In this document: one piece after another, positions 34,530-58,233 of the stretch
Layout: every line of letters begins with the position of its first letter
How positions within the stretch are numbered: position 1 is the first letter of the stretch
From: Promethearchaeota archaeon
Lineage (GTDB): Archaea; Asgardarchaeota; Lokiarchaeia; Sigyniarchaeales; SOKP01
Assembly: GCA_019057865.1 (NCBI GenBank)
Contig: JAHLWP010000023.1
Coordinates: 1-62,718 of the forward strand
DNA length: 62,718 nucleotides
Direction of reading: 5' to 3'
Program-made: the position numbers and the translations under genes
Notes under the pieces: generated by a model
Told to the model about the DNA's origin: nothing
Seen by the model: only the letters and a program-made list of their open reading frames with translations
Databases searched by the model: none

Positions 34530-37064
34530 TTAAAAAAGATCATCATCAAGATCTTCATTCCCCTCTGGGAATCTTCCGAATTCTTGCATGAATTGTTGAA
34601 GTAATTCACTCTCTCTTTTTGTGTACATTGGATCTTCATCATAATCAAAATAACAAGCCTTTATATTTGTTTTTAATTGTTCCTCTAATGCTAAACGTAA
34701 ATTAGGAGTTCCTTGTATTAAGATTATCTCTTGATTCTCATTTAAGACTTGAATAGCACCTTCCGTCTCGGGTACTAATAGAACATTGTCAGTAATTAAT
34801 TCTAACCATTTTTGAGGGGGAAGCACTACAGGTGAGATTTCAAAACGTAGATCACATCTTAAACAACGATTAGCCTCTTCCAAGGCTAAATTTTCATCAA
34901 AACCTAGTTCAATTTCATTAAAACTGCTTTGACGTTCTTTTAAAGATAAAAGCGGCATTTGAGAACGCGATTTATCAAAAAAGTTTTCATCACGTCCCAA
35001 GAATGGGTTAGAAACCTCTTTTTCAGTAAATATATCTTCCATTTCGCCATTCCCTCCCAAATACTTATCAATTGAAGTAGCAGCTTTTCGTCCCATCTCA
35101 ATTGCATCAACTACAGAACCGGGGTTTATTACAACTTCACCACCCGCAAAAATTCCAGGGATATTTGTCTCTAAAGTTTCTTCTTTAGTTTGAATCAATC
35201 CTTCTGTAGAGATTTTAATTTTGTTCTCTCCCTCCAAAAGAGATAAATCAGGAATTTGGCCTATAGCCATTATTATCATGTCTGTTTTAATCGATTTAGT
35301 ATTTTTTTCATCAAAAATAGGATTGAATTTGTTATTTTCATCAAATATTGAGTCACAGTGGATAAGTTCTACCTCAGACACTTTACCATCCATATCAGTG
35401 ATTTTTTTTGGTCCCCATGAACAATTAAGTGTTATGCCCTCATCTATTGCTTTTTGAATTTCCCATTCATGAGCAGGCATCTCTTCCCTACATTCTAAGC
35501 AGGTTAATTGGACTTCTCTAACTCCTAATCGTTTAGCTGTTAAAGCTACATCTATTGCTACATTACCTCCCCCGATAACAATAACATTTTCAGTAATCTT
35601 AACTTCTTTACCAAGATTGATTTCTTTCAAAAAGTCAAGACCCCATAGAATATTTGGTAGATTTGAACCTTCTATCTCAAGTTTTTTGGTATTTTGAGCA
35701 CCAATAGCTAAAAATATGGCATCAAAGCCCTGTTCTTTTAAATCATCAAGCGATAAATGTTCTCCTATAAGTTTTTCTGTTTGGATATCAATTCCCGTAC
35801 TTAATATATGATCAAGATCTTTTTGAAGGACAACTCGTGGTAATCGATATTCAGGAATTCCTACTCTCAACATTCCTCCCATATAAGAATTAGTTTCAAA
35901 CACTGTAACAGAATGGCCAATTCTCCTTAAATAATAAGCTGCTGTGAGTCCTGCTGGACCAGAACCAATCACGGCCACTTTTTTCCCCGTTGAAGAGCCA
36001 ATTTTTATTTGTGATTTCCACAATTCAGTATCATGGTCCATTGCAAAACGTTTTAGTGCACAAATAGCAATAGGTTCATTAATTTGGTTTCGACGGCATT
36101 TGATTTCACAATCATGAAAGCAAACTCTTCCAAGAACTGAAGGAAAAGGTGTTTTTTCGCGGACAACTGCCGCTGCTTCAGCATACTTTTTCTCTGCAAT
36201 CAATCGAATATATCGTGGTACATCAATCCCTAATGGGCAAGTATCTCTACAAGGGACAAGCTGTTTTTCACGTTCAGCCCAAAGGATATCTTTATCTGTC
36301 AGTGCTCCTGTTGGGCAAACCTCAACACAAGCACCGCAGAATTTACATCCCGATTCCTTAAGAGTAGGGGCTATGCTCCCAACTATGGTTTCTCCATTAG
36401 AATAAACGAACCCTAAGGCTTCAACACCACGGAGATCTCGACAGACTCTAACACATCTAGTACATCCGATACATAACTCGTAATTCCGGATAAAAAGAGG
36501 TTCATCCTCAATAATCGTACGTCCTCGGGGAATATAACGTGGAGTATCTTCTCGAATTCCAATATTCTCAGCAATTTTTTGTAATTCACATCGTCCTAAG
36601 ATTGGACAACAACGTTCCTCTACAGGAACATTAGGCGAACATGGTTCACGACTACAACCTTCGCGTTGGGCACAAACCAAACAGGCATGTGGATGTGTTG
36701 AAAGTATCTGCATTAACTTCTCACGACGCAGAGCTTGAATTTCCGATGTATTAGTCAAGATTATCATACCCTCTTCGATCATAGTACTACAAGATGTAGA
36801 TAAACCTTCAATCCCTTCTACTTTTACAACGCAAAGTTGGCATCCTTCATGTCCTTGGGATGAAAAAATAGAATTATCATTTTTGATTTGAGTATTCCCT
36901 TGAAAAACAAATTCTATTGGTTTCATTCCTATTAGGGGTGGTAAATCTGGGTGTGCACAAAGACTAGGAATATAAATTCCAGCATTTTTAGATGCTTCTA
37001 AAATAGTAATTCCTTTTTTAGTATCAATTTTAGTCCCGTTAATAGTAATTGATATCGTTTCCAT
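34530..37064 (-). CDS. bzdV: BzdV-like NAD(P)H:ferredoxin oxidoreductase (2Fe-2S/NuoG-like N-terminus, 2x[4Fe-4S], GltD-like FAD domain, C-terminal extra domain)
   Basis: IPSLCAHP, GCQLCVV, CIGCTRCVRVC, CKFCGACVEVCP, PCRDTCP, GRVC, GSGPAG, GIPEYRLP, GGGNVAID and EANRCLRC; last gene of the bzd operon. Confidence 0.72.
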   Translation of the reverse strand: METISITINGTKIDTKKGITILEASKNAGIYIPSLCAHPDLPPLIGMKPIEFVFQGNTQIKNDNSIFSSQGHEGCQLCVVKVEGIEGLSTSCSTMIEEGMIILTNTSEIQALRREKLMQILSTHPHACLVCAQREGCSREPCSPNVPVEERCCPILGRCELQKIAENIGIREDTPRYIPRGRTIIEDEPLFIRNYELCIGCTRCVRVCRDLRGVEALGFVYSNGETIVGSIAPTLKESGCKFCGACVEVCPTGALTDKDILWAEREKQLVPCRDTCPLGIDVPRYIRLIAEKKYAEAAAVVREKTPFPSVLGRVCFHDCEIKCRRNQINEPIAICALKRFAMDHDTELWKSQIKIGSSTGKKVAVIGSGPAGLTAAYYLRRIGHSVTVFETNSYMGGMLRVGIPEYRLPRVVLQKDLDHILSTGIDIQTEKLIGEHLSLDDLKEQGFDAIFLAIGAQNTKKLEIEGSNLPNILWGLDFLKEINLGKEVKITENVIVIGGGNVAIDVALTAKRLGVREVQLTCLECREEMPAHEWEIQKAIDEGITLNCSWGPKKITDMDGKVSEVELIHCDSIFDENNKFNPIFDEKNTKSIKTDMIIMAIGQIPDLSLLEGENKIKISTEGLIQTKEETLETNIPGIFAGGEVVINPGSVVDAIEMGRKAATSIDKYLGGNGEMEDIFTEKEVSNPFLGRDENFFDKSRSQMPLLSLKERQSSFNEIELGFDENLALEEANRCLRCDLRFEISPVVLPPQKWLELITDNVLLVPETEGAIQVLNENQEIILIQGTPNLRLALEEQLKTNIKACYFDYDEDPMYTKRESELLQQFMQEFGRFPEGNEDLDDDLF

Positions 37065-37172
37065 TTTTTACACTCTCTAAAAATAATTAGATCAAGAAAC
37101 AATCGTAAAAAAAAATTATGGTATGGATCGATATTTATTATTTGAAATAATAAATAAATATCTACTTATATT

Positions 37173-37460
37173 CTACCAAGAGTGAGATAATGCGCCAGGT
37201 TCACAAGCTTGTACACAAGGTAATTCCTTTGACCTACCACCTGGTTTACAAGGAGCACATGAGTATTTAATTTTCTTGCGGTGTTCTTCAGTGACGGTTG
37301 CTATGATTTCATCCCCTAGGGGATCTAGTTCATTTTCAGCCATTTCTAGTACACCTACAGGGCATGCTTCAACACATCTTCCACATGAATTACATAGATC
37401 AGTATCTACAGTGATAAAATATTCTCCTGAGCCATCCTTATAACCATAATTAGCTTTCAT
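37173..37460 (-). CDS. Benzoyl-CoA-reductase-associated 2x[4Fe-4S] ferredoxin
   Basis: CNSCGRCVEACP and CAPC...PCVQAC; located between bzdQ and the bzdV-like gene. Confidence 0.85.
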   Translation of the reverse strand: MKANYGYKDGSGEYFITVDTDLCNSCGRCVEACPVGVLEMAENELDPLGDEIIATVTEEHRKKIKYSCAPCKPGGRSKELPCVQACEPGALSHSW

Positions 37461-37498
37461 CCTTCACTTCCTCTTGTTTTAAATATTTAAATGAGATT

Positions 37499-38386
37499 TT
37501 AAGCTTTCTTGCGCTCTTTTTCGACAAGAATCTTTCCAAACAAGGCTGCCCCAATTGCTCCGGCGAGTTGTGGATCGATAGTTGATTCAGAGGCTTTGAT
37601 TTTCAGTTCATCCTCAATTCTTTTAACAACTCCAATATTTTTAGCAATTCCCCCGGTTATGGCAAATTTCTCTTCTATTCCAAGCCGTAGTAATAAAGTC
37701 ACTATACGATGTGCCATTGCTGCGCAATAAGCTGCCAAAACCTTTTCTTTGGGCCAACCCTTTCTAAGTAACCCAACAGCTTCTGATTTAGCAAATACCA
37801 CACAAGTGCTACTAACTGGTTCTGGTTCTTCATCTACTTGCAAAGACATTTTTCCTACATCATTAATGTGTACTTGAAGCAAATCTGCAAATACTTCCAT
37901 TCCTCTTCCTGTTCCTGCAGCACATTTATCATTCATGAGGAACGCAGTAACTTTACCACGATGATCACAACGAATTGCTTTACAATCTTGTCCTCCCATA
38001 TCCAATACTGTTCTTATCTCGGGACCATAAATAAAGTTAGCACCTCTAGCATGACAAGCGATTTCTGTAATAGCTCGATTTGAAAATGGTACATTAACTC
38101 GACCATATCCAGTTCCAACAACATATTGAATTTTATCTAGAGATAAACCTGTATCTTCAAGTGCCCAATTCATTGCATTATTGGCGCTATCTGGACTATT
38201 AGACCCTGTTCTCATGCTGCTATAACAATAGATTTCACCATCTACCATTATTACAGCTTGGGTGCTAACTGACCCAACGTCAACTCCTGCTGAAATAATA
38301 TCTCCATCTTGCCAGTTTAGATCTGGGTTAGTATAACGAGATTCAGTCCATCTCCAATATTCCTTGTCTAATTCTGCATTTGACAT
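37499..38386 (-). CDS. bzdQ: Benzoyl-CoA reductase, Bzd-type, subunit Q (ATPase/activator)
   Basis: N-terminal EYWRW, GVDVGSVSTQ, GTGYGR, TEIACHARG, DMGGQD, MNDKCAAGTGR and STCVVFAKSE. Confidence 0.9.
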   Translation of the reverse strand: MSNAELDKEYWRWTESRYTNPDLNWQDGDIISAGVDVGSVSTQAVIMVDGEIYCYSSMRTGSNSPDSANNAMNWALEDTGLSLDKIQYVVGTGYGRVNVPFSNRAITEIACHARGANFIYGPEIRTVLDMGGQDCKAIRCDHRGKVTAFLMNDKCAAGTGRGMEVFADLLQVHINDVGKMSLQVDEEPEPVSSTCVVFAKSEAVGLLRKGWPKEKVLAAYCAAMAHRIVTLLLRLGIEEKFAITGGIAKNIGVVKRIEDELKIKASESTIDPQLAGAIGAALFGKILVEKERKKA

Positions 38387-38390
38387 TATT

Positions 38391-39173
38391 TTAACCTCTA
38401 ATTTTATCTTGTGCTATAAGTGCTGCTCCTAACGCACTAACATATTCTGGAGCTACAACATCCTTTGGTACTAAGAGATCAAATCCAAGATTTCTATTCA
38501 TTGCATCTACAAACCCAATATTTTTCGCCATACCACCTATCAATGAGATATCTTTCTCAATACCTATTTGACGAAGCATACTTGTGTTTCTATCTGCAAT
38601 TGCATCATGTACGGCTCGAATTATATCCTCCTTCTTAGTTTTTTGATGTATTAATGATACGACTTCTGATTCTGCAAATATTGTACATTGTGCGTTCATT
38701 GGAATTTGTTTAGTTGATTTTAAAGATAATTCTCCCATTTCTTCAATTTCTACTTCTAATGCTCTAGACATAGCTTCTATAAACGCACCAGCCCCAGCAG
38801 CACATTTCTCATTTATACCAAAATCTTTAACTTTACCGTGTTCGTCAATTTTTACAACTCTTCCCTCTTCTGCTCCTATATCAACTATAGTGCGTACAGA
38901 AGGAAAAATAAAATAAGTTCCACGAGCATCGGCAGTGATTGTAGTTATATTAGTATCTGCAAACTTAATTGCATCCATCCCAGCTCCAGTGACAGTAATA
39001 TGTTTAATCTCTTCTCGTTTAATTCCCGCTTTATCAAGAGCACTATTTAATACTTGCTCTGCTGATTCTTCTTGATCAAATCCACTTAATACCGAAGCTG
39101 TAGATAAAATCTTATCATCAAAAATACAAACTTTTGTATTTTTTGAACCAGCATCCAGTCCTACTGTTATTAT
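38391..39173 (-). CDS. bzdP: Benzoyl-CoA reductase, Bzd-type, subunit P (ATPase/activator); probable ATA start
   Basis: The track ORF (from 38978) extends 65 codons in frame (IITVGLDAGSKNTK...VTGAG). Core motifs are DIGAEEGR, NEKCAAGAG and QCTIFAESE. Confidence 0.88.
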   Translation of the reverse strand: MITVGLDAGSKNTKVCIFDDKILSTASVLSGFDQEESAEQVLNSALDKAGIKREEIKHITVTGAGMDAIKFADTNITTITADARGTYFIFPSVRTIVDIGAEEGRVVKIDEHGKVKDFGINEKCAAGAGAFIEAMSRALEVEIEEMGELSLKSTKQIPMNAQCTIFAESEVVSLIHQKTKKEDIIRAVHDAIADRNTSMLRQIGIEKDISLIGGMAKNIGFVDAMNRNLGFDLLVPKDVVAPEYVSALGAALIAQDKIRG

Positions 39174-39253
39174 TTTAAACCACTCTTCATTCTTTTAATT
39201 TAAATTTTTAATGATAAACTTTTTTTTGATTATAAAAAAAATCTATAAATTGA

Positions 39254-40567
39254 TTAGTATTTTATTTTCTCCATCTCAATTGATTCCATAAAAGCATCTA
39301 CACGCTTCATAGTTCGCTCAAGATCAAATTCTCTCTCATCTCCCATGTTACCTTCAAAGGGCATGGTTGGTATCCCTGCTTTTTGGATAGCTAAACGATT
39401 TTCTGCAATTCCGAGACTTAAACCCTCACATCCTCTATTAAAATGCAGAAATACCCCATCTAATTTCCATTCCTTAGCGATCCTAATCATCATATCAGAT
39501 TTAAGTTTTGGATGATAAAAATGCTGCCATTCTGGTTTACTCAAATTCCATTCAGCAAGCGCTCGTAATGCGTCATCTCGATTAGTTATTTCAATATCAG
39601 GAATAGTTTTAGGACCCCATGTTCCATCTTCTTTTACTTCCCATAAACCAATGAGTCCAAATGTGTAAAGACTTCCTATTGATACACAACCATATTGCTC
39701 TAAATAGCGAAAAATTCTTAAAAAAGCCCAAGGAGGTTGAGTATCTGTCATAATACGGCATTTTTCATTTCCTACAGCAGCTATACCTCGTGCTACGCGA
39801 TCTTTTATTTCTGGATATAGTTCTTTTTCATAAAAGTCCGCTGTCCATTGAGCTGATTTTCTTAAAGTACCGAGAACATATAAAGAATACATTGATTTCT
39901 CATCTAAAGGAGCTGGTATTGCTTTATTAAGAGCGCAAATTGCTGACCAATAATAACAAGTCCGAAATTCATTATAAACTGCTTTAATTAAAAGTTCATC
40001 GTCATAATTTCTTCCAGTTATTTTTTCAAGCCATTTGATTCCATCATGCATCTGACTAACAATATAATTGATTTTGTGATCAGTTCGTTTTTCATATGGT
40101 CCCACTGATACATCAATACTAAACATAGGAATTCCTCCTTCAAGTTCACTTGCTATCTGATACCATTTAGAATGGGAACAGCAAATATGATCTTGCCATA
40201 TGAAGTCTGCTTTAGGGAATTCTTCAGAAAATTGTGGCCATGCATATTTGTTAATAAGGATAGATCCCCAATAATTACGCATATAGGAACAGAGATCACG
40301 CGCAAATCCCTTAGCTTCAGTTGCCTCTTGACATTCTAAAGCAAATTTATCGTTAAATGCAACAGTTGCTCCATATGGTTCTCCTGTTAACGAATATACA
40401 TCATCTCCTAATCCAGCAGGAATAGCATCAAAAGACCATGCTCCTCCTGCCCATCTAAGTCCACCCCGTTCGTGAGCCTTAGCAAAGTCTTCATAATACT
40501 TCACTCTAAGGGCTTTAGCTTTATTCCAACACTTCAATTGTTCTGTTGGATATTTAGTCTCTACCAT
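39254..40567 (-). CDS. bzdO: Benzoyl-CoA reductase, Bzd-type, subunit O
   Basis: [48 protein letters not shown] and HFNRGCEG. Confidence 0.92.
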
Positions 40568-40585
40568 TTTTATACCTCTTAAACT

Positions 40586-41707
40586 CTAAAATAAATCCTC
40601 TTCTCTTAATATTTCAAGAAATGCTTCAACCCGCGTTTTGAATTGACCTATTGGAACGGTAACATCGAATTCAAGGAATAAAGTTGAGATACCATTATCT
40701 TCTAAAGCTTGCTTAATAATAGGAATATCTAATTCATGTGGATCACAAAATTTTTGTTGAATTAAGATCGCTCCTTGCACATCATAATCCTTTGCCAATT
40801 GTACAATATAATCAAGTCTTGTTCGTTGAGGCCAATCTTTACTTGGGCAAGGTATGCGTTTCACATACCTTTCAGATATTGCAGCTAGCAAATCTCCGTT
40901 TATTTTTACTTCCTTATCAAAATACCGAGTTCCAGTACAATGATCATCAATTACAAATCTTGCACCTAAACCTTCAACCATACCCAGAAATTTAGTATCA
41001 TCATCCTCAGAGCCTAAGATCATAAGCCGTTCACCCGAGTCATCTAGATTCCTTGAGGGAAGATCTTGTAAAAGTTTTTCTAATGCTTTATTATGGTCTT
41101 GCTTATCTGTTATTTGAGCAGAGACTACCATAAGCATTGCTTCTAAACCTGTCAAGGGGGGATTAGACTTTTTTCTGAGTTCATACACTTCTTGCAAAAG
41201 GCGGCGATTACTATTCATAGCCTCAATCCCTCGTTTAAGATCCTCATCTGTAATTGGGATATCTGTCCACTTTTCAACTGCTTTTTTGAATTCTTTTAGC
41301 TCTTCTGTTAAATAAGGGATAGCATGAGGACTTTGAACATGCATAGGATGTGGTAGATAGTATTTAAAATCCACAGGAATATGGAGATCCCAGCTAGTAT
41401 AAGTCTGTCTAATATGGAGACAACTTTGAGCAATCATTATTCCATCAAGATAGTCATATTTGCCTTTCAGACCTTGAGCTAAACAATCACGACAGAAAGG
41501 GCAAAACATAGCAAAAATATGCGGTTCTGAGACATCTTGTGGTTCATGACTGCCTAATATCCTTACTGGTAGAATATTTGCTGCATATAGAATCTCTTCA
41601 GGTACATATGTACAAAAATATCCTAGTACTTTACCACCAGTACGCTCTTTCCATTTTTTCGCATATTCATGCCGGTTTTCGTACCAATCTTTAAACTTTT
41701 CAAACAT
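40586..41707 (-). CDS. bzdN: Benzoyl-CoA reductase, Bzd-type, subunit N
   Basis: GYFCTYVPEE, MFCPFCRDCLAQG, QSCLH, DDHCTGTRYF, CPSKDWP and QKFCDPH. Confidence 0.92.
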   Translation of the reverse strand: MFEKFKDWYENRHEYAKKWKERTGGKVLGYFCTYVPEEILYAANILPVRILGSHEPQDVSEPHIFAMFCPFCRDCLAQGLKGKYDYLDGIMIAQSCLHIRQTYTSWDLHIPVDFKYYLPHPMHVQSPHAIPYLTEELKEFKKAVEKWTDIPITDEDLKRGIEAMNSNRRLLQEVYELRKKSNPPLTGLEAMLMVVSAQITDKQDHNKALEKLLQDLPSRNLDDSGERLMILGSEDDDTKFLGMVEGLGARFVIDDHCTGTRYFDKEVKINGDLLAAISERYVKRIPCPSKDWPQRTRLDYIVQLAKDYDVQGAILIQQKFCDPHELDIPIIKQALEDNGISTLFLEFDVTVPIGQFKTRVEAFLEILREEDLF

Positions 41708-41721
41708 TTTAATTCAAATTT

Positions 41722-42768
41722 TTATTTTTGACAAAAGATAATAATTCTAATTCCTTCTCCCCGCCGCATAACGTCAAAGGCTTCATTAATTTCTGAAAGT
41801 GGAAATTTATGTGTAATTAGTGGTTTTAGCTGAAGTGAACCATTCTTAACCAAGTCAATAATATGTGGATAATCCACGGGACGGCAACCAAGGCTTCCCA
41901 TTATTTCCATTTCTCGAAACATTACACGACCAATATCGAATCCATCCCAACGTTTAGGTGAGTATCCCACAGCAATCAAACGACCTCCAGTTCGTAAGCT
42001 ATTGAATGCCTGTTTCATTGTTGCTGGATGCCCGATTGCCTCAAAGGCAATATCCGCACCTCCTCCAGTTATTTTTCTAATAGTACCAACGATTTCTCTT
42101 TCATCTTTATCTTTTGCTAAAATAGTTTCTACAGCTCCGATTTGCTTAGCAATCTCCAACTTTTTAGGGACAATATCAACAGCAATAGGTAACCCACCTG
42201 CTGCTCTTATATTCTGAACCACATTTAAACCAATTCCACCACAACCAATAACCACTGCCCAGTCACCAGGTCTAACTTGACCTCGATTTTTCACTGCATG
42301 GTACGGTGTTGAAACAGCATCCGAGATAATACAACTTTCTTCTAATGACAATTCAGTTGGTAGATGAACCACATCTTTTATAGGGACCTTAATTTGTTCT
42401 GCAAATCCCCCATCAATGTGATTACCAAGCATTATTTGATTACTGCAAATATTTTCTCGACCAGTTCTACAATTAACACAGTACCCACAGGAAAGCACAG
42501 CGGGAATAATAACATGATCTCCTTTTTTAAAGGTAGTTACATTCTCACTTACCTCTTTAATACGTCCTGATATTTCATGACCTAAAATAAGGGGTGGCTG
42601 TTTAACTGTTGGTACACCATGTTCTAGATAACCAAAATCAGTATGACAAACACCACATGCTTCTATCTCTATTATAGCTTGACCTATTTCGCCAGAAATA
42701 CTCGGCGTCGGATAATTATCATCTAGTTTTAAGGGTTCCTTAACCTTTTCAAAAACGGCTGCTCTCAT
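41722..42768 (-). CDS. had: 6-hydroxycyclohex-1-ene-1-carbonyl-CoA dehydrogenase (Zn-dependent MDR; BzdX/Had)
   Basis: CGVCHTD, LGHEISG, CGYCVNC...C, DAVSTPYHA and GSLGC; operon context. Confidence 0.82.
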   Translation of the reverse strand: MRAAVFEKVKEPLKLDDNYPTPSISGEIGQAIIEIEACGVCHTDFGYLEHGVPTVKQPPLILGHEISGRIKEVSENVTTFKKGDHVIIPAVLSCGYCVNCRTGRENICSNQIMLGNHIDGGFAEQIKVPIKDVVHLPTELSLEESCIISDAVSTPYHAVKNRGQVRPGDWAVVIGCGGIGLNVVQNIRAAGGLPIAVDIVPKKLEIAKQIGAVETILAKDKDEREIVGTIRKITGGGADIAFEAIGHPATMKQAFNSLRTGGRLIAVGYSPKRWDGFDIGRVMFREMEIMGSLGCRPVDYPHIIDLVKNGSLQLKPLITHKFPLSEINEAFDVMRRGEGIRIIIFCQK

Positions 42769-42846
42769 CTTAATTTCCTACAATTTGTTTTATTTTTATT
42801 ATAATTTAAACCTAATTCTTATTAAATTTAAGAATAATGAAATTGT

Positions 42847-43623
42847 TTAACGGTTTTGCCAATTGGGTGATCGTTTCTCTAAAAATGCTTGTAATCCTTC
42901 ATTCGCATCATGCGTTGACATTAGTTCTTTGAGATAAAATTCTTCAATCTGATCTAGTTGAGTATCAAAATCGATTCCTAAAGCTATGTTGAATATTTTT
43001 TTTGTATGTTGTAAAACAATTGTGCTTAGACTATTAAAAGATTCAATAAATTTAGTAAATTCTTGTTCAAATGATTCATGCGGGAAAATTTGGTTAGAAA
43101 TTCCGAGTCTAAGAGCCTCATTAGCATCGATTATATTGCCTAACATGATAAGTTCAAAAGCTTTTTTATTTCCGATAATTTGAGGAAGGGCTAATACAGC
43201 AATTGGTGGAAATACACCTACTTTTATTTCTGGTTGACCAAATTTGGCTTTCTCTGAGGTAAGTACAATATCACAAAATATCGCAATTTCACAACCTCCA
43301 CCAAGAGCTGCCCCTTTAACACTTGCTATTGTGGGACATTTAATCTTGTTAAGTTTTCTAAAAATTCCATGGAATTCCTTAATCATTTTTGGAGCTTTAT
43401 CACCAATATGATCATCTATATCAACTCCCGAAGAAAATGCTTTTCCATTATGATCAAAAATTAGTGCCTTTAATGATTGATCAGCTATAAAACCTTCAAG
43501 AGCCTTATTGATTTGCTCCATCATTTGAATTGTTAAAATATTCAATGGACCATTGTTGAAAATAATTCTTCCAACATCATTAGCTTTTTCCACTATAATT
43601 AAATCATTTGTCAACTTTTTCAC
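42847..43623 (-). CDS. dch: Cyclohexa-1,5-diene-1-carbonyl-CoA hydratase (BzdW/Dch)
   Basis: Crotonase with PLNIL, FSSGVD..DH, LGGGCE and QPEIKVGVFPP; GTG start; operon context. Confidence 0.82.
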   Translation of the reverse strand: MKKLTNDLIIVEKANDVGRIIFNNGPLNILTIQMMEQINKALEGFIADQSLKALIFDHNGKAFSSGVDIDDHIGDKAPKMIKEFHGIFRKLNKIKCPTIASVKGAALGGGCEIAIFCDIVLTSEKAKFGQPEIKVGVFPPIAVLALPQIIGNKKAFELIMLGNIIDANEALRLGISNQIFPHESFEQEFTKFIESFNSLSTIVLQHTKKIFNIALGIDFDTQLDQIEEFYLKELMSTHDANEGLQAFLEKRSPNWQNR

Positions 43624-43671
43624 TCAATATGGCGATTTTTTTCTGTCTTTTTTTTTAAAAAAATATTATAA

Positions 43672-44637
43672 TTATAGTTTAGCTCCACAGTTACCACAAA
43701 ACTTGAAAACAGAAGGTAAGTTTTTGGTCTGACATGAAGGACATGTTATAGATGGTGGACCCCATAAAAATTCGGGATGTTGACTTCCTCTTATACCTCT
43801 ATAATTTGGAGGACGTTTTTCTACAAATGCTGACATTCCTTCAAGAGGTTCCCAGGAAGTATAATGAATAGCTAACCAGTCTTTTGCGTGACCAATTGTT
43901 TGATGCCAAACAAGATCTTTCCAGAAATTAACTTGTTGTTTTGTATATCTCATGCATTCTGGAAACTTATCAATAAGTTTCTGACAAAATTTATCAACTT
44001 CATCATCTATTTCTGAATACGGGACAACAGAATTCACTAAACCCCATTCTAAAGCTTTTTTTGCTGAGATTGGTTCACATAGAAATAAAATTTCTCTTGC
44101 TCTACGATCACCAACAATAATAGGTAACCATTGAGTCGCGCCTCCACACGCCACAGATCCTACTCTTGTTCCTACTTGTTGAATAGTAGCATGTTCTGCA
44201 GCTACTGCTAAATCACAAGCCATTTGCCATTCATTACCCCCTCCTGCCACGATACCATTGATTCTCGCAATAGTAGGTTTACCAATATTACGGAATACAT
44301 CATGAGCTTCTTGGAAAATACTCATCCATTTCCAATATTCAGCAGGTTGGACTGTAAATCTTTCTCTATACTCTTTTACGTCACCACCAGTACAAAAAGC
44401 CTTATCACCTGCTCCAGTCAAGATAATAACAGCAACATTATTATCCCAAGCGGCATCATGAAATGCTTCAATCATTTCCATTAAAGTAAGGGTTGAATAA
44501 GCATTATAAACATGAGGTCGGTTTATTGTTACTTTTGCTTTCCAATCTTTTTTTTCATAAATTATTTCTTTAAAATCGAATTCTTTTGGATCCTTAGGTG
44601 TGAAGTTTGGTTCTTTTGTATAAGTCATAACAATCAC
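43672..44637 (-). CDS. oah: 6-oxocyclohex-1-ene-1-carbonyl-CoA hydrolase (ring-opening; BzdY/Oah-like) with C-terminal Zn ribbon
   Basis: YNAYST, AFCTGGD, GGGNEW..ACDL, GSVACGGAT and DKFPEC; tail CPSC...FCGNCG. Confidence 0.8.
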   Translation of the reverse strand: MIVMTYTKEPNFTPKDPKEFDFKEIIYEKKDWKAKVTINRPHVYNAYSTLTLMEMIEAFHDAAWDNNVAVIILTGAGDKAFCTGGDVKEYRERFTVQPAEYWKWMSIFQEAHDVFRNIGKPTIARINGIVAGGGNEWQMACDLAVAAEHATIQQVGTRVGSVACGGATQWLPIIVGDRRAREILFLCEPISAKKALEWGLVNSVVPYSEIDDEVDKFCQKLIDKFPECMRYTKQQVNFWKDLVWHQTIGHAKDWLAIHYTSWEPLEGMSAFVEKRPPNYRGIRGSQHPEFLWGPPSITCPSCQTKNLPSVFKFCGNCGAKL

Positions 44638-44727
44638 ATCAATACTTAATTTTTTTGATTTCTTTTTTTTTTATTATTATTCTTAGATAATTTTACAAAT
44701 TAATTTAAAATTTGTTAATAGAAAACG

Positions 44728-44753
44728 TTTAGTGGGAATAAAATTCCACTAAA
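44728..44753. promoter_or_regulatory. Imperfect inverted repeat (TTTAGTGGGAAT-AAA-ATTCCACTAAA) in the divergent promoter of the bzd operon; candidate operator
   Basis: Read directly; about 90 bp upstream of oah. Confidence 0.45.
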
Positions 44754-44859
44754 AGCACAATTCAGATGGAATATAAAAAATAGTAATCTTTAAACCGAAC
44801 ATTATCATAATATCTAATGTAGATTCGGAAAAGAAAACTTAAAATTGGACAGAATAACT

Positions 44860-45141
44860 ATGGTGTCAGATAAAGAAAAAGGTAAAGAAGAAAAAGATCT
44901 AAATATTCCTCCTAGAGGAAAAGACTGGGAGAGGGGATTCACAGTTGAAGAAAATAGAGTAGCTGAGTACGTAGAATTGTATGAATCAATTGGGTATGAA
45001 GTACGCGTTGAGTCTGCTACTCCAGATGAGATGGAAGATTGTCAAGTATGCTTTAAGGTAAATTTTGATAATTTACGAACAATCTATATCAAGCGAATAA
45101 AAAATAAAGATAATTACACGGACTTAGAAGAAGAAATATAA
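44860..45141 (+). CDS. Small CxxC hypothetical protein divergent from the bzd operon
   Basis: WERGF...RVAEYVELYESIGYEVRVE...CQVCF...TIYIK; ATG 44860. Confidence 0.7.
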   Translation: MVSDKEKGKEEKDLNIPPRGKDWERGFTVEENRVAEYVELYESIGYEVRVESATPDEMEDCQVCFKVNFDNLRTIYIKRIKNKDNYTDLEEEI

Positions 45142-45248: not shown

Positions 45249-45689
45249 ATGTCGAACTTAGAACCTGTTAAATTTGAAGATTTTAATGAAGGAGATTCTG
45301 CTTCATTTGCAAAAACCATAACTGAGGCGGATGTAACACTATTTGCGGGAATATCCGGAGATTTCAATCCTTTACATATTAATGAAGAGTTTGCGAAAAC
45401 TCAGATGTTTGGTACACGTGTCGTTCATGGGGCTTTTAGTTTAGCATTAATTTCAGCAGTACTTGGTGTTCATTTATTTGGTCCAGGAGCCCTTTATGCT
45501 TCACAAAAGGTAGTATTTAAAAAACCAGTATATATTGGGGATACATTAACTGCAGTTGCAACAATAACAAAGAAATACACTAAAGAAGGCAAAAGTGGAA
45601 CACTACAATTTCTAGATGTAGAAACAAAAGTATTAAACCAAAAAGATGAAGTTGTTACAGACGGAGAAGCCCAAGTACTAGTCATGTAA
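45249..45689 (+). CDS. MaoC-family (R)-enoyl-CoA hydratase
   Basis: FAGISGDFNPLH, VVHG and FKKPVYIGD. Confidence 0.92.
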   Translation: MSNLEPVKFEDFNEGDSASFAKTITEADVTLFAGISGDFNPLHINEEFAKTQMFGTRVVHGAFSLALISAVLGVHLFGPGALYASQKVVFKKPVYIGDTLTAVATITKKYTKEGKSGTLQFLDVETKVLNQKDEVVTDGEAQVLVM

Positions 45690-45789
45690 CATTTTTTTTC
45701 TTTTTTCATATTTTAACAATGCGTTTTTTCTTAACAAATGTTTTCGAAAAATTTTTTGTATTTGCTTTATTTTTTTTAAATGGTATGAA

Positions 45790-46926
45790 ATGTCAGAAAA
45801 AGTCGAAGATCGAATAAAAGAATTAGAAGAACGATTGGCTTCCACCAAGGTAAACAAAGCTACACAAAAAAGTATAAATTTCATTAAAGCACAACTAGCC
45901 AAACTCCGCGAAGATTTGATTCGTATTGCTAGTTCTAAAAAAGGAGGTGGCGGTGGCTTTGGAATAAAAAAATCTGGAGCTGCTCAAGTATCTTTTATTG
46001 GATTTCCTTCAGTAGGAAAATCTTCCTTACTTAACTTGCTTACCGGAGGGAAAACTCATTCTAAAGTAGCAGCATACGAGTTTACAACAGTAACAGCTAT
46101 ACCTGGTATGATGAATATTGAAGATGCTAAAATACAGCTTATTGATTTGCCAGGGGTAATTTTAGGTGCAGCTACAGGAAAAGGACGTGGTAAGGAAGTG
46201 TTGGGGGCAGTAAGGACTGCTGAGTTAATTTTAATTATTATATGTTTTCGTCAAGATGGAACTATTAATATCACAGACTTAGATTTAATTAGAAAAGAAT
46301 TAAATGACGCTGGGATTCGGTTAAACACTCAACCCCCACGGATTCAGATAAAGGAACAAAACCAAGGAGGTATACATTTCACATATAATGGGAATCAATT
46401 AATGGATACAGAAGAAGTTAAATCTTTAATGAATGATTTGAAAATTCGTAATGCGGGTGTTTACTTCGCCGAACCTGACATTATCCCAGATCAATTAATA
46501 GATTTCGTTTTAGGTAATCGAGTTTATACAAGAGAATTTGTTGTTATAAATAAATCTGATTTAATGGAAGCTCCAATTCCCCCTGAAAAGATTACAGAAG
46601 CAATTGGTCATGAACATTGGGTTATGGTCTCAGCGAAAAATAAAGAAAATATTAATACGCTTAAGCATAATATCTTCATGGAGCTGAATTTAATACGAGT
46701 GTTTTTGAAGCCACCAAGACAGGAAGCTGATATGGATGAGCCAATAATTCTCCACCGGGGTGATACACTAGAGAAACTCTGTCGTAAAATTCACAAACGA
46801 TTCATAAGCGATTATCGCTACTCGTTAGTATGGGGTAAATCTGCTAAGCACCCTGGTCAAAAATTTGATAACCTAGATCACGTAGTTGAGGATGGTGACA
46901 TAATTTCAATTTATCTGAAGCGATAG
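45790..46926 (+). CDS. DRG/RBG1-family OBG GTPase with TGS domain
   Basis: NKATQ, GFPSVGKS, YEFTT, DLPG, NKSD and WGKSAKHPGQ (TGS). Confidence 0.93.
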   Translation: MSEKVEDRIKELEERLASTKVNKATQKSINFIKAQLAKLREDLIRIASSKKGGGGGFGIKKSGAAQVSFIGFPSVGKSSLLNLLTGGKTHSKVAAYEFTTVTAIPGMMNIEDAKIQLIDLPGVILGAATGKGRGKEVLGAVRTAELILIIICFRQDGTINITDLDLIRKELNDAGIRLNTQPPRIQIKEQNQGGIHFTYNGNQLMDTEEVKSLMNDLKIRNAGVYFAEPDIIPDQLIDFVLGNRVYTREFVVINKSDLMEAPIPPEKITEAIGHEHWVMVSAKNKENINTLKHNIFMELNLIRVFLKPPRQEADMDEPIILHRGDTLEKLCRKIHKRFISDYRYSLVWGKSAKHPGQKFDNLDHVVEDGDIISIYLKR

Positions 46927-47144
46927 TAGGAATGAAGAATTTAAATCTTTAAAATCAACAAAATTAGAGAAGAATTATTCTATTCATTAATTTCTTTATT
47001 AATTAAACTTTTAAAATATTATATTAAAACTTAATTCTTTTCTTAAAAAACTAATAAAATATATTAAAATGCCATCTTAATAGTTATTTAAAGTAATCTA
47101 ATTAAATCAGAATTTTTAAAAATAAATTTCCAAGAGAAGAAGAG

Positions 47145-47483
47145 ATGAAGGAGGAAAAACCTCAAATTCCAGGGGAAGATGAAATGATTCAAAAATGTAT
47201 TGATCCCATTACTGGAAGAGATATCACGGCTGAACATATAAGTCAACGTTTAACTGAACTAGAGAAAATTGCAGTTGATATTGTAAACAAAGCGATCGAA
47301 GAATATAAGAAAAATCCAGATGGAAAACACACAATCTACGAGAAATATTATTGGGAAATTCATCAAAAATTAGGAGTAGGCTCTATTGGACCTGCAACTG
47401 CCGCAGCTGGACCTTTAATGTATTCGAAGATGGATGAATTGGCCAATAAACTAGGTATTTCTAAAGAAGAGCGAATTTCTTAG
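47145..47483 (+). CDS. Hypothetical protein
   Basis: 112-aa ATG ORF with purine-rich upstream sequence. Confidence 0.65.
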   Translation: MKEEKPQIPGEDEMIQKCIDPITGRDITAEHISQRLTELEKIAVDIVNKAIEEYKKNPDGKHTIYEKYYWEIHQKLGVGSIGPATAAAGPLMYSKMDELANKLGISKEERIS

Positions 47484-47565
47484 TGAAAATATGAAATTAA
47501 ATCCCATTATTTATTTCTGAACATAAAATTTAACATTTCACATTATTTCAGAATAGACCCTAATG

Positions 47566-47587
47566 TTTTCCCATAATTATGGGAAAA
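47566..47587. promoter_or_regulatory. 22-bp perfect palindrome TTTTCCCATAATTATGGGAAAA; candidate operator
   Basis: Read directly; 100 bp upstream of the CoA ligase-thiolase-dehydratase run. Confidence 0.6.
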
Positions 47588-47687
47588 GATAAAATTTTTT
47601 ATATAAATTAGATGTTTAAAATAAGATTAAAATATTTTTAGAAATCGTTCAGATTCATCAATTACGTAAATAAAGGAGGAAGAAATA

Positions 47688-49268: not shown

Positions 49269-49315
49269 GAAATTATAAGAAAAATAATTATAAATTAAAT
49301 AAGAGTGTAAATTAA

Positions 49316-50524: not shown

Positions 50525-50584
50525 ATTAAATTCTAATTATTTTATTTTTGAAAGTACAACTTAATAATAAATGAGGTATCTTTA

Positions 50585-51811: not shown

Positions 51812-51946
51812 AATTGCTAGAGAAGGAAATTTTAAGAATTAAATAAGTATAATTTTTAAAGAATTAAGAATAAAAAACTTTGTAAATAACAATTCGAATG
51901 ATAAAAAGAATTTCCCTCAAATACATTATATAAGAGAAAAAAAAAA

Positions 51947-58216: not shown

Positions 58217-58233
58217 TCAATTATTATGCAATT

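What the first reader, a model, noticed from the sequence alone, without database searches (positions are those of the whole stretch)
34530..44637. Contiguous Bzd-type class I benzoyl-CoA reductase and ring-cleavage operon in an Asgard-like archaeon
Seen: nine co-oriented, closely spaced genes in the order oah-dch-had-bzdN-bzdO-bzdP-bzdQ-ferredoxin-bzdV-like. Established: these steps convert benzoyl-CoA to 3-hydroxypimeloyl-CoA by ATP-dependent dearomatisation in Azoarcus/Aromatoleum and in the archaeon Ferroglobus placidus. N/O/Q-specific motifs plus the adjacent dch/had/oah genes separate it from the generic HgdABC paralogues that are often mis-annotated as BCR. Inference: the organism degrades aromatics anaerobically. 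This is notable because energy-limited strict anaerobes usually use the ATP-independent class II (BamB) enzyme. Aromatic degradation has been proposed for Asgard lineages before, so the novelty lies in the completeness and operon structure.
Basis: partly seen in the sequence, partly recalled or inferred. Interest (0 to 1): 0.75.

Follow-up and report, generated by a model that had tools for sequence, protein, structure and literature searches.

The report
Asgard Bzd-type benzoyl-CoA reductase operon
This Lokiarchaeial genome carries a genuine ATP-dependent operon for breaking the benzene ring without oxygen; that is already published for Asgard archaea, but here the usual ring-opening enzyme is replaced by a different, unnamed relative.

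Summary
Nine co-oriented genes lie on the minus strand at 34530-44637. BzdN, BzdO and BzdQ pass NCBI's curated Bzd-type cut-offs. BzdO and BzdN match the crystallised Aromatoleum BzdNO far better than any dehydratase, and every cluster ligand and catalytic residue checked is kept, with one substrate-side Ser replaced by Gly. The contig is archaeal, and the cluster is syntenic in about 30 related Lokiarchaeial species.

Bzd-type operons with ferredoxin, BzdV, Dch and Had in Loki-, Hermod- and Heimdallarchaeota were published in 2019-2021. BzdO passes its cut-off in 57 of 400 Asgard genomes surveyed.

Corrections and additions:
- **"oah" is not canonical Oah/BamA.** It is a 321-aa MenB/BadI-like crotonase with a C-terminal zinc ribbon. 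Its family and canonical Oah largely replace each other among BzdO-bearing genomes.
- **bzdP starts at ATA.** This codon aligns with the ATG of relatives.
- **A tenth gene.** An unannotated 93-aa protein travels with bzd clusters in archaea and bacteria.
- **Regulation.** A non-coding block upstream of the operon, which contains a palindrome, is more conserved than the coding DNA. A related palindrome precedes the divergent ligase-thiolase operon.

No enzyme activity or growth on aromatics was tested.

The parts
43672..44637 (-). ech321: MenB/BadI/Oah-related crotonase with a C-terminal 4-Cys zinc ribbon (CPSC...CGNC). It is the proposed ring-opening hydrolase standing in for Oah/BamA.
   Evidence: It has Pfam ECH_1 plus Zn_Ribbon_1. 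NCBIfam scores are all below cut-off: BadI 209/468, MenB 209/380, Oah 189/464.
42847..43623 (-). ech258: Dch-like enoyl-CoA hydratase, the candidate cyclohexa-1,5-diene-1-carbonyl-CoA hydratase.
   Evidence: Its best NCBIfam hit is TIGR03189 at 170 bits against a 292-bit cut-off. The Dch-like genes beside canonical Oah in the bacterial loci L057 and L066 are also below the cut-off; L057 scores 175.
41722..42768 (-). adh348: Had-like Zn-dependent MDR dehydrogenase, the candidate 6-hydroxycyclohex-1-ene-1-carbonyl-CoA dehydrogenase.
   Evidence: TIGR03201 is the top hit at 237 bits against a 339-bit cut-off, about 40 bits above any other ADH family. Relatives score 225-274 bits.
40586..41707 (-). 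bzdN: BCR subunit that carries the [8Fe-9S] double-cubane cluster.
   Evidence: TIGR03190 scores 488 bits, above the 454-bit cut-off. It scores 474 bits to PDB 8S02_B. Cys36/73/100/263/293/327, Arg53/267/290, His330, Ser239 and Gln324 are all conserved.
39254..40567 (-). bzdO: catalytic, benzoyl-CoA-binding subunit with the aqua-[4Fe-4S] cluster.
   Evidence: TIGR03191 scores 681 bits, above the 449-bit cut-off. It scores 660 bits to PDB 8S02_A. Cys95/128/380, Glu65, His131, Trp46, Tyr97, Tyr298, Gln274, Leu302 and Leu383 are conserved. Ser44 is Gly here, as in all 78 relatives examined.
38391..39173 (-). bzdP: second ASKHA ATPase subunit, 260 aa, starting at ATA 39173-39171.
   Evidence: Read from a few codons upstream of the ATA, it gives a full-length match to CoA_E_activ (1-248 of 248). 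There is no in-frame ATG, GTG or TTG before 38978. The ATA aligns with ATG in about 70 relatives; L035 also has ATA, L014 has GTG, and L024 and L033 have TTG. The nearest solved structures are the HadI activator and MbdQ/MbdP.
37499..38386 (-). bzdQ: ATPase subunit.
   Evidence: TIGR03192 scores 435 bits, above the 380-bit cut-off.
37173..37460 (-). 2[4Fe-4S] ferredoxin (BzdM-like), the presumed electron donor to BzdPQ.
   Evidence: It has Fer4 domains. It carries eight Cys as CxxCxxCxxxCP and CxxCx10CxxxCEP. It follows bzdQ in nearly all related loci, bacterial ones included.
34530..37064 (-). BzdV-like 844-aa protein with an N-terminal [2Fe-2S]/NuoG-like FeS domain and a GltD/NfnB-like FAD-NAD(P)H module. 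It is the presumed NAD(P)H-linked ferredoxin reductase.
   Evidence: The domains come from Pfam and NCBIfam. The best PDB matches to residues 270-740 are NfnA/StnC-type and NfnI subunits. It follows the ferredoxin in archaeal and bacterial loci at 43-84% identity.
44860..45141 (+). orf93: unannotated 93-aa protein with invariant W23, E31, R33, E36, Y41 and a CxxC motif (C61, C64). It is a conserved companion of bzd clusters.
   Evidence: It sits divergently upstream of ech321 in 22 same-family loci at 69-86% identity. In the Heimdall/Hod-type Asgard loci (group f16), Thermoplasmata, Gemmatimonadota and Acidobacteriota loci it lies immediately downstream of bzdV. It has no Pfam or NCBIfam family. 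The profile search found 1025 representative clusters at E<=1e-3. The AF2 model has pLDDT 63 with a beta-alpha-beta-beta core and no significant PDB fold match.
44662..44757 (.). Conserved non-coding promoter/operator block upstream of the bzd operon. It contains the inverted repeat AGTGGGAAT-AAA-ATTCCACT at 44731-44750.
   Evidence: The block has a median 93% DNA identity to the window in 22 species. The ech321 coding DNA has 86% and its third codon positions 67%.
47568..47585 (.). Perfect palindrome TTCCCATAATTATGGGAA upstream of the CoA-ligase operon. It uses the same half-site as the bzd operator, in everted order.
   Evidence: The sequence is. It is conserved, with a flanking block, in most same-family relatives.
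45249..52417 (+). Divergent companion module: MaoC hydratase (45249-45689), an inserted TGS-domain Obg/DRG-family GTPase, AMP-forming acyl-CoA ligase (47688-49268), thiolase (49316-50524), HadB-like HGD-D protein (50585-51811) and MaoC (51947-52417). It probably handles substrate activation and beta-oxidation of the opened ring or of a side chain.
   Evidence: The domains come from Pfam and NCBIfam. The module is syntenic with the bzd operon in same-family loci at 79-96% identity. Orthologues of the ligase (64-66%) and thiolase (59-60%) lie near canonical Oah in the Heimdall/Hod-type group f16. The ligase is not the TIGR02262 benzoate-CoA ligase equivalog: it scores 192 bits against a 375-bit cut-off.

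Best explanation
The locus is a chromosomal operon of a Lokiarchaeial (Promethearchaeota) archaeon. It encodes a Bzd-type, ATP-dependent class I benzoyl-CoA reductase with its electron-supply chain and the modified beta-oxidation enzymes that open the dearomatised ring.

The proposed flow is as follows.
1. An acyl-CoA ligase from the divergent operon makes the aryl-CoA.
2. The BzdV-like flavoprotein reduces the 2[4Fe-4S] ferredoxin.
3. BzdPQ uses ATP hydrolysis to push electrons into BzdN ([8Fe-9S]) and BzdO (aqua-[4Fe-4S]). This reduces benzoyl-CoA to cyclohexa-1,5-diene-1-carbonyl-CoA.
4. [quoted passage not shown]
5. The MenB/BadI-like crotonase with a zinc ribbon (ech321) opens the ring, in place of canonical Oah/BamA.
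6. MaoC hydratases and the thiolase continue the beta-oxidation.

What is shown: the gene content and order, family membership of BzdN, BzdO and BzdQ, conservation of the active-site and cluster ligands, and the synteny and phyletic patterns.

What is inferred: every catalytic step, the role of ech321, the direction of electron flow through BzdV, the ligase substrate, and co-regulation through the shared palindromic operator.
For: - **HMM membership.** BzdN, BzdO and BzdQ exceed the curated equivalog cut-offs, while the Bcr-type and Had-type models score 3-5 times lower.
- **Match to the crystallised enzyme.** BzdO and BzdN score 660 and 474 bits to Aromatoleum sp. CIB BzdNO (8S02), against 103 and 176 bits to HadBC. 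All three BzdO and six BzdN cluster cysteines are conserved, together with Glu65, His131 and the benzoyl-pocket residues of PMC11971306.
- **Synteny.** The nine-gene order plus the divergent module is conserved in about 22-30 species of the same GTDB family. The bzdNOPQ-fd-bzdV core is also conserved in Thermoplasmata, Aminicenantes, Planctomycetota and Eubacteriales MAGs.
- **ech321 and Oah replace each other.**
  - In the window's family (f1), 30/134 genomes have BzdO, 0/134 have canonical Oah and 34/134 have ech321.
  - In the Heimdall/Hod-type group f16 the counts are 13/22, 15/22 and 0/22.
  - In a third Asgard group, f19, they are 11/19, 0/19 and 11/19.
  - Four non-Asgard BzdO-bearing genomes each have one or the other.
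- **Independent association.** In a fourth Asgard group, f15, an ech321 orthologue (72%) sits in a cluster with a Had-like gene and a different four-subunit BCR-like enzyme set, 27-41% identical to the Bzd subunits.
- **Chromosomal, archaeal context.** Archaeal r-proteins eS1 and uS15 and a TGS-domain Obg/DRG-family GTPase lie on the same contig.
- **Regulation.** The operator block is conserved above the coding level, and a related palindrome precedes the ligase operon.
Against: - No biochemical or expression data exist for this genome.
- Dch, Had and the ligase are below their curated cut-offs.
- ech321 matches no characterised equivalog, and close homologues (57-74%) occur in Asgard families without BzdO (groups f9, f15 and f17). 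Its substrate may therefore be broader or different.
- bzdP depends on a rare ATA start, so its expression level is uncertain.
- The genome has no carboxyltransferase (PF01039) and no OAD_beta (PF03977). A glutaconyl-CoA decarboxylase route below glutaryl-CoA is therefore absent, and a decarboxylating glutaryl-CoA dehydrogenase must be assumed.
- BzdO is present in only 20/53 genomes of the genus, so it is an accessory trait.
Confidence: 0.85

Rival explanations
1. The BzdNOPQ-like enzyme is a paralogue acting on something other than benzoyl-CoA. Candidates are a substituted benzoyl-CoA or a 2-hydroxyacyl-CoA, which would make it an HgdAB/HadBC-type dehydratase mis-read as BCR.
For: All members share the Pfam families HGD-D and BcrAD_BadFG. 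The same window and genome hold further HGD-D paralogues and activases. Ser44 of Aromatoleum BzdO, which lies near C3 of the ring, is Gly here.
Against: The equivalog cut-offs are passed, and the HadB/HadC models score only 127 and 197 bits. Similarity to crystallised BzdO is about 6-fold higher than to HadB. His131, which is Ala in HadB according to PMC11971306, and the rest of the benzoyl pocket are conserved. The Gly at position 44 is universal in 78 relatives. MbdO (3-methylbenzoyl-CoA reductase) matches at only 44 bits.
Confidence: 0.07
2. ech321 is not the ring-opening hydrolase. It would be an ordinary hydratase, a BadI-type 2-ketocyclohexanecarboxyl-CoA hydrolase for alicyclic acids, or a MenB. 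Ring cleavage would then be done by an unidentified enzyme, or the pathway would stop at a cyclic product.
For: ech321 is below the cut-off for Oah and scores slightly better for BadI and MenB. Homologues exist in Asgard families that lack BzdO. One search lists homologues in cultured Firmicutes (Heliophilum, Acididesulfobacillus); whether those organisms have a BCR was not examined. The tree does not resolve it as sister to Oah.
Against: Its phyletic distribution complements canonical Oah among BzdO-bearing genomes. It is the first gene of the operon, next to the Dch- and Had-like genes. It also accompanies a second, unrelated BCR type. The positions aligned to E. coli MenB Tyr97 and Asp163 are Val and Ala; the catalytic role of those MenB residues is recalled from memory. 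No other gene in the 99.7%-complete genome scores better for Oah.
Confidence: 0.35
3. The cluster is on a mis-binned or chimeric contig of bacterial origin, or is a very recent bacterial transfer that says nothing about Asgard physiology.
For: GC content of the cluster (0.32-0.38) is somewhat above that of the flanks (0.26-0.31). The closest non-Asgard BzdO sequences are bacterial or Thermoplasmatota at 67-73% identity. The genome has 5.2% estimated contamination.
Against: The same contig carries archaeal ribosomal proteins, a TGS-domain Obg/DRG-family GTPase and other housekeeping genes. The cluster and its flanks are syntenic in about 30 Asgard MAGs, including closed chromosomes. All 47 Asgard BzdO sequences form one supported clade.
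Confidence: 0.02

Closest known systems
bzd cluster of Aromatoleum (Azoarcus) sp. CIB; BzdNO crystal structure 8S02 (PMC11971306)
   Same: It has the same four-subunit architecture, split into NO and PQ modules, with a dedicated ferredoxin and a BzdV-type oxidoreductase. BzdO and BzdN score 660 and 474 bits to the crystallised proteins. All cluster ligands, Glu65, His131 and the benzoyl-pocket residues are conserved.
   Different: The host is a strictly anaerobic archaeon. The Dch/Had/hydrolase genes precede bzdN here rather than following it; the Aromatoleum gene order is recalled from memory, because the 2004 paper was not held. The ring hydrolase is not Oah-type. Ser44 is Gly. bzdP starts at ATA.
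Published Asgard bzd clusters: Hermodarchaeota h02s_80 (PMC8163825, Fig. 5) and Lokiarchaeota CR_06 (bioRxiv 10.1101/763623)
   Same: They describe the same kind of cluster. Bzd-type subunits lie on one contig with BzdV, ferredoxin, Dch and Had, and are read as an ATP-dependent benzoyl-CoA pathway in Asgard archaea.
   Different: The passages of those papers read here do not mention the non-canonical hydrolase, the 93-aa companion gene, the ATA start or the conserved operator. Only the text found by term searches was read, not the supplements.
[quoted passage not shown]
   Same: ech321 is in the same crotonase superfamily. It occupies the place in the pathway gene set that canonical Oah fills in other BzdO-bearing genomes.
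   Different: ech321 scores 189 bits against a 464-bit cut-off. It is 321 aa rather than 369-385 aa, lacks the segment at HMM positions 212-261, and adds a zinc ribbon. Canonical Oah sits on a long separate stem in the tree.
BadI (2-ketocyclohexanecarboxyl-CoA hydrolase) and MenB (DHNA-CoA synthase)
   Same: These are the best-scoring named families, with full-length alignments of about 209 bits each. Both catalyse Dieckmann or retro-Dieckmann C-C chemistry on cyclic beta-keto-acyl-CoAs, which is established knowledge.
   Different: ech321 is far below both cut-offs of 468 and 380 bits. The positions aligned to MenB Tyr97 and Asp163 are not conserved. The zinc-ribbon tail is extra.
Class II (BamB-I) tungsten benzoyl-CoA reductase
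   Same: An AOR-family gene (54844-56733) and an HdrD-like gene lie 10 kb away. In the Heimdall/Hod-type clusters (group f16) their orthologues lie directly next to bzdN.
   Different: This AOR scores 375 bits to Pyrococcus AOR and 260 bits to BamB 4Z3W. It is therefore an aldehyde oxidoreductase and not BamB.

Membership tests
Bzd-type class I benzoyl-CoA reductase (BzdNOPQ) | The N, O and Q subunits score above the curated equivalog cut-offs (TIGR03190, TIGR03191, TIGR03192). | tested here: met
   Scores are 488/454, 681/449 and 435/380 bits.
Bzd-type class I benzoyl-CoA reductase (BzdNOPQ) | BzdO has three Cys ligands of the aqua-[4Fe-4S] cluster (C95, C128, C380) and the acid/base pair Glu65 and His131. 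| tested here: met
   All are conserved in the alignment to 8S02_A. The residue list comes from PMC11971306.
Bzd-type class I benzoyl-CoA reductase (BzdNOPQ) | BzdN has six Cys ligands of the [8Fe-9S] double cubane (C36, C73, C100, C263, C293, C327). | tested here: met
   All six are conserved, as are R53, R267, R290, H330, S239 and Q324.
Bzd-type class I benzoyl-CoA reductase (BzdNOPQ) | The benzoyl-CoA pocket residues are present (W46, Y97, Y298, Q274, L302, L383, S44). | tested here: met
   All are conserved except S44, which is Gly here and in all 78 relatives examined.
Bzd-type class I benzoyl-CoA reductase (BzdNOPQ) | Two ASKHA ATPase subunits (P and Q) are encoded next to N and O. | tested here: met
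   BzdQ passes its equivalog cut-off. BzdP is a full-length activase domain only if translation starts at ATA 39173.
Bzd-type class I benzoyl-CoA reductase (BzdNOPQ) | The enzyme carries out ATP-dependent reduction of benzoyl-CoA to 1,5-dienoyl-CoA. | not testable with these tools
   This needs an enzyme assay.
Oah/BamA ring-opening hydrolase (TIGR03200) | The protein scores above the equivalog cut-off of 464 bits over the full 360-position model. | tested here: not met
   ech321 scores 189 bits and matches only positions 38-211 and 262-327. Canonical neighbours in relatives score 542-561 bits.
BadI 2-ketocyclohexanecarboxyl-CoA hydrolase (TIGR03210) | The protein scores above the equivalog cut-off of 468 bits. 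| tested here: not met
   ech321 scores 209 bits.
MenB 1,4-dihydroxy-2-naphthoyl-CoA synthase | The protein passes the equivalog cut-offs of 343 and 380 bits and keeps the catalytic Tyr97, Asp163 and Tyr258 (E. coli numbering; the residue roles are recalled from memory). | tested here: not met
   ech321 scores 200 and 209 bits. The aligned positions are Val, Ala and Tyr.
[quoted passage not shown] | The protein scores above the equivalog cut-off of 292 bits. | tested here: inconclusive
   ech258 scores 170 bits, which is its top hit. The Dch-like genes next to canonical Oah in the bacterial loci L057 and L066 are also below the cut-off (L057 scores 175), so the model appears narrow.
Had 6-hydroxycyclohex-1-ene-1-carbonyl-CoA dehydrogenase (TIGR03201) | The protein scores above the equivalog cut-off of 339 bits. 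| tested here: inconclusive
   adh348 scores 237 bits, which is clearly its top hit. Relatives score 225-274 bits.
Benzoate-CoA ligase (TIGR02262) | The protein scores above the equivalog cut-off of 375 bits. | tested here: not met
   The best hit in the genome scores 258 bits. The cluster's own ligase scores 192 bits and is best matched by the generic FadD-like model PRK06187 at 430/476 bits.
Class II BCR catalytic subunit BamB | The protein is closer to BamB than to aldehyde:ferredoxin oxidoreductases. | tested here: not met
   The AOR scores 375 bits to 1AOR and 260 bits to 4Z3W.

The most novel reading that the evidence does not exclude
The 317-330-aa crotonase-plus-zinc-ribbon family (ech321) is an unrecognised ring-opening hydrolase. 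It would do the Oah/BamA step in Lokiarchaeia, in two further Asgard groups (f19 and f15), in some Thermoplasmatota and in many bacteria. If so, surveys of anaerobic aromatic degradation based on bamA would miss these lineages. In addition, the 93-aa CxxC protein (about 1000 representative clusters, no Pfam family) would be a previously unnoticed accessory component of Bzd-type reductases.
Probability: 0.45. Interest if true: 0.55.

Novelty: new member of a known kind. Interest (0 to 1): 0.35.

Why it matters
The headline claim, an ATP-dependent benzoyl-CoA reductase operon in an Asgard archaeon, is real but already published, so it adds one more well-assembled example. Here the cluster lies on a 62.7-kb contig of a 99.7%-complete genome.

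What may be worth following up:
- **A different ring hydrolase.** This whole Lokiarchaeial family lacks the standard marker gene bamA/oah and carries a different, highly conserved crotonase in its place. That would bias marker-based estimates of anaerobic aromatic degradation.
- **An unannotated companion gene.** A small protein travels with bzd clusters in both archaea and bacteria.
- **A testable operator.** A strongly conserved palindromic operator links the reductase and ligase operons, which gives a defined regulon to test.
- **ATA starts.** Two genes of the region start at ATA, so automatic annotation will truncate them.

Tried and rejected
- **Programmed -1 frameshift for bzdP.** An out-of-frame ATG (MKSGLK**) overlaps a T_TTA_AAA heptamer. 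I rejected this because the in-frame ATA aligns exactly with the ATG of about 70 relatives, and another species also has ATA.
- **The nearby AOR as BamB (class II BCR).** Rejected, because it is closer to Pyrococcus AOR.
- **ech321 as MenB for menaquinone synthesis.** Rejected on HMM cut-offs, on non-conserved MenB positions and on its operon context.
- **Ser44 to Gly in BzdO as a specificity change.** Rejected, because Gly is universal in the 78 relatives examined.
- **High identity across 'different Asgard phyla' as evidence of recent transfer.** Rejected. The >88%-identical hits, labelled Hermod-, Hod- or Odinarchaeota at NCBI, group with the Promethearchaeota sequences of the window's type, and the GTDB survey places that type in two genera of the window's own family.
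- **Fold search for orf93.** Foldseek against the PDB gave no match at E<=0.001. The ESM Atlas returned only hypothetical proteins.
- **Original bzd cluster paper.** PMC516837 was not held, so orf93 could not be compared with BzdS, BzdT or BzdU.
- **RNA families.** Rfam found no match in the window.

Full report
**Observation.**
ORF listing and family scans confirm nine co-oriented genes on the minus strand between 34530 and 44637, separated by 4-108 bp. In transcription order they are:
- a 321-aa crotonase with a zinc ribbon
- a 258-aa crotonase
- a 348-aa Zn-dependent dehydrogenase
- BzdN, BzdO, BzdP and BzdQ
- a 95-aa ferredoxin with eight cysteines
- an 844-aa protein that joins [2Fe-2S]/NuoG-like FeS domains to a GltD/NfnB-like flavin module

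**Is it a real benzoyl-CoA reductase?**
BzdN, BzdO and BzdQ exceed NCBI's curated equivalog cut-offs (488/454, 681/449 and 435/380 bits). The Thauera-type Bcr models and the HadB/HadC dehydratase models score three to five times lower.

Against solved structures, BzdO scores 660 bits and BzdN 474 bits to the crystallised BzdNO of Aromatoleum sp. CIB (8S02). HadB and HadC score 103 and 176 bits, and the 3-methylbenzoyl-CoA reductase subunits MbdO and MbdN score 44 and 108 bits.

I took the residue lists from the structure paper (PMC11971306) and read them against the printed alignments.
- In BzdO the three cysteines of the aqua-[4Fe-4S] cluster are conserved. So are Glu65 and His131, and the pocket residues Trp46, Tyr97, Tyr298, Gln274, Leu302 and Leu383.
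- In BzdN the six cysteines of the [8Fe-9S] cluster are conserved. So are its three arginines, His330, Ser239 and Gln324.
- The only difference is Ser44 to Gly in BzdO. All 78 relatives examined share it, so it is not specific to this genome.

**bzdP.**
The canonical-start ORF is only 195 aa. The frame is open for 67 more codons that encode the ASKHA N-terminus, with no ATG, GTG or TTG among them. I considered a -1 frameshift from an out-of-frame ATG and rejected it. In about 70 related loci the start is ATG-ATA-ACA, and the window has ATA-ATA-ACA at exactly that place (39173-39171). One other species also has ATA, and three have GTG or TTG. Read from a few codons upstream of that ATA, the protein covers the whole activase model.

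The nearby aldehyde oxidoreductase shows the same pattern. ATA GTT TGG at 54844 aligns with ATG GTT TGG in relatives. Earlier notes of this scan had flagged both ATA starts, and my comparison with relatives supports them.

**Whose genome?**
The window is a whole 62.7-kb contig of a 4.26-Mb genome estimated at 99.7% complete and 5.2% contaminated. It carries archaeal ribosomal proteins eS1 and uS15, a TGS-domain Obg/DRG-family GTPase, Ham1 and other housekeeping genes.

A scan of species-representative genomes found BzdO at 81-93% identity in about 50 Asgard MAGs. It was 67-73% identical in Thermoplasmata, Aminicenantes, Planctomycetota, Eubacteriales and other MAGs. The nine-gene order recurs in about 22-30 of the Asgard loci at 75-97% protein identity, together with a divergent module of MaoC, acyl-CoA ligase, thiolase, an HGD-D protein and MaoC. 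The six-gene core bzdNOPQ-fd-bzdV also recurs in the bacterial and Thermoplasmatota loci. All 47 Asgard BzdO sequences form one supported clade with two subclades. A chimeric or mis-binned contig is therefore very unlikely.

**How common is it, and is it new?**
In a survey of 400 Asgard genomes, BzdO passes its cut-off in 57. I use the survey's anonymous group codes below.
- f1, the window's own GTDB family: 30 of 134 genomes, including 20 of 53 in the window's genus.
- f16, whose clusters are those labelled Heimdall- or Hodarchaeota at NCBI: 13 of 22.
- f19, a third Asgard group with small genomes: 11 of 19.

The trait is thus patchy and accessory but widespread.

The literature already describes it. 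Farag et al. (bioRxiv 10.1101/763623) reported BzdNOPQ in one operon in Lokiarchaeota and discussed the paradox of an ATP-dependent enzyme in energy-limited sediment archaea. Zhang et al. (PMC8163825) show a Hermodarchaeota contig with the four Bcr subunits, BzdV, ferredoxin, Dch and Had.

**The 'oah' gene.**
The 321-aa protein (ech321) scores 189 bits on the Oah model, whose cut-off is 464, and matches only positions 38-211 and 262-327. It scores 209 bits on each of BadI and MenB, again far below their cut-offs. No better Oah candidate exists in the genome.

By contrast, crotonases found near bzd genes in Brocadiaceae, Planctomycetota, Aminicenantes and Thermoplasmatales loci score 542-561 bits, so they are canonical Oah.

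ech321 ends in a four-cysteine zinc ribbon. The positions aligned to E. coli MenB Tyr97 and Asp163 are Val and Ala (the roles of those residues are from memory).

ech321 belongs to a large, slowly evolving family of 311-348-aa proteins, annotated only as enoyl-CoA hydratase or naphthoate synthase. It occurs in several Asgard lineages, Thermoplasmatota, Acidobacteriota, Armatimonadota, Chloroflexota and some cultured Firmicutes. In a tree, this family forms a tight bush from which canonical Oah and MenB depart on long separate stems.

**Why I still think ech321 opens the ring.**

| Genomes | BzdO | canonical Oah | ech321 homologue |
|---|---|---|---|
| Window's family (f1) | 30/134 | 0/134 | 34/134 |
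| Heimdall/Hod-type group (f16) | 13/22 | 15/22 | 0/22 |
| Third Asgard group (f19) | 11/19 | 0/19 | 11/19 (10 of the same genomes, mostly within 10-15 kb of bzdO) |
| Gemmatimonadota chromosome | yes | yes | no |
| Thermoplasmata bin33 chromosome | yes | yes | no |
| Methanomassiliicoccales bin396 chromosome | yes | yes | no |
| Thermoplasmata b1.sp2_bin.40 | yes | no | yes |

In a fourth Asgard group (f15), an ech321 orthologue (72%) lies in a cluster with a Had-like gene and a different four-subunit BCR-like enzyme set, 27-41% identical to the Bzd subunits. This association is independent of the Bzd type.

Against this reading, 57-74% homologues occur in Asgard families without BzdO. I put the hydrolase role at roughly 55-65%.

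The Dch-like and Had-like genes are also below their cut-offs. So are their counterparts in the related clusters tested, and the Dch-like genes beside canonical Oah in L057 and L066 among them, so those two models are simply narrow.

**Additional parts.**
- **orf93.** A 93-aa ORF at 44860-45141 lies divergent from the operon. It is conserved at 69-86% in 22 same-family loci. Its homologues sit immediately downstream of bzdV in the Heimdall/Hod-type Asgard, Thermoplasmata, Gemmatimonadota and Acidobacteriota loci. It has invariant Trp, Glu, Arg, Glu and Tyr residues and a CxxC pair. It has no Pfam or NCBIfam family. A profile search found 1025 representative clusters at E<=1e-3. Its AlphaFold model is of middling confidence and has no significant PDB match.
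- **Operator block.** The 95-bp non-coding block upstream of the operon is 93% identical (median) across 22 species. The coding DNA is 86% identical and third codon positions 67%. The block contains the inverted repeat AGTGGGAAT-AAA-ATTCCACT.
- **Ligase palindrome.** A perfect palindrome with the same half-site in everted order lies upstream of the ligase and is conserved in most relatives. Together the two sites suggest one regulon.

**Pathway context.**
- The cluster's ligase is a generic FadD-like enzyme and not the benzoate-CoA ligase equivalog, so the entry substrate is unknown.
- Orthologues of the ligase and thiolase lie near canonical Oah in the Heimdall/Hod-type genomes, which ties them to the pathway.
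- The AOR 10 kb away is an aldehyde oxidoreductase and not BamB. In the Heimdall/Hod-type clusters its orthologue abuts bzdN.
- The genome lacks the carboxyltransferase and OAD_beta families, so glutaconyl-CoA decarboxylase is absent.
- Three PFL-like glycyl-radical enzymes are present.

**Verdict.**
The locus is a genuine, well-preserved Bzd-type class I benzoyl-CoA reductase operon in a Lokiarchaeial genome. All catalytic roles remain inferences from sequence and gene context.

Noticed in passing
window 54844-56733 (+): The aldehyde:ferredoxin oxidoreductase needs an ATA start at 54844. ATA GTT TGG there aligns with ATG GTT TGG in Heimdall/Hod-type relatives, and the canonical-start ORF lacks about 37 N-terminal residues. 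With bzdP, this makes two ATA-initiated genes in one window.
   Followed up: partly
L095:5211-11550 and L096:2152-8346 (Asgard group f15): A different gene cluster holds a Had-like ADH, a four-subunit BCR-like enzyme set only 27-41% identical to BzdNOPQ, and a 72% orthologue of ech321. This may be a second type of class I reductase in Asgard archaea.
   Followed up: partly
window 34071-34478 (+): An ACT-domain-pair protein lies convergent with the end of bzdV. It is conserved at this position in many same-family loci (50-96% identity) and may be a small-molecule-binding regulator.
   Followed up: no
L046 (CP070831, Promethearchaeota bin108 chromosome): This closed chromosome has only a 5'-truncated cluster. 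bzdO starts at residue 40, and bzdN, Had, Dch and ech321 are not in the 10-kb flank. Neither Oah nor ech321 is found elsewhere in that genome, so the operon looks decayed.
   Followed up: partly
L017 (DAOVRZ010000160, labelled Halanaerobiales bacterium): A 7.9-kb contig in a bacterial MAG carries bzdNOPQ-fd-bzdV at 80-92% identity to the window and is nearly identical to a Heimdallarchaeota-labelled contig (L018). It is probably mis-binned. NCBI phylum labels among the Asgard hits are also inconsistent with the GTDB grouping.
   Followed up: no
own genome G000 (whole): The 99.7%-complete genome has no PF01039 carboxyltransferase and no PF03977 OAD_beta. Three PFL-like glycyl-radical enzymes are present (C58:36083, C54:193828, C41:77749).
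   Followed up: partly
window 1377-2543 (+), 50585-51811 (+), 58213-59010 (+): Two further HGD-D family proteins (388 and 408 aa, HadC/HadB-like) and a separate BcrAD_BadFG activase lie in the same window, each without an obvious partner subunit next to it.
   Followed up: no
window 45790-46926 (+): A housekeeping TGS-domain Obg/DRG-family GTPase is inserted between the MaoC gene and the ligase of the divergent module. It is there only in the window and three relatives (L009, L012, L020).
   Followed up: no
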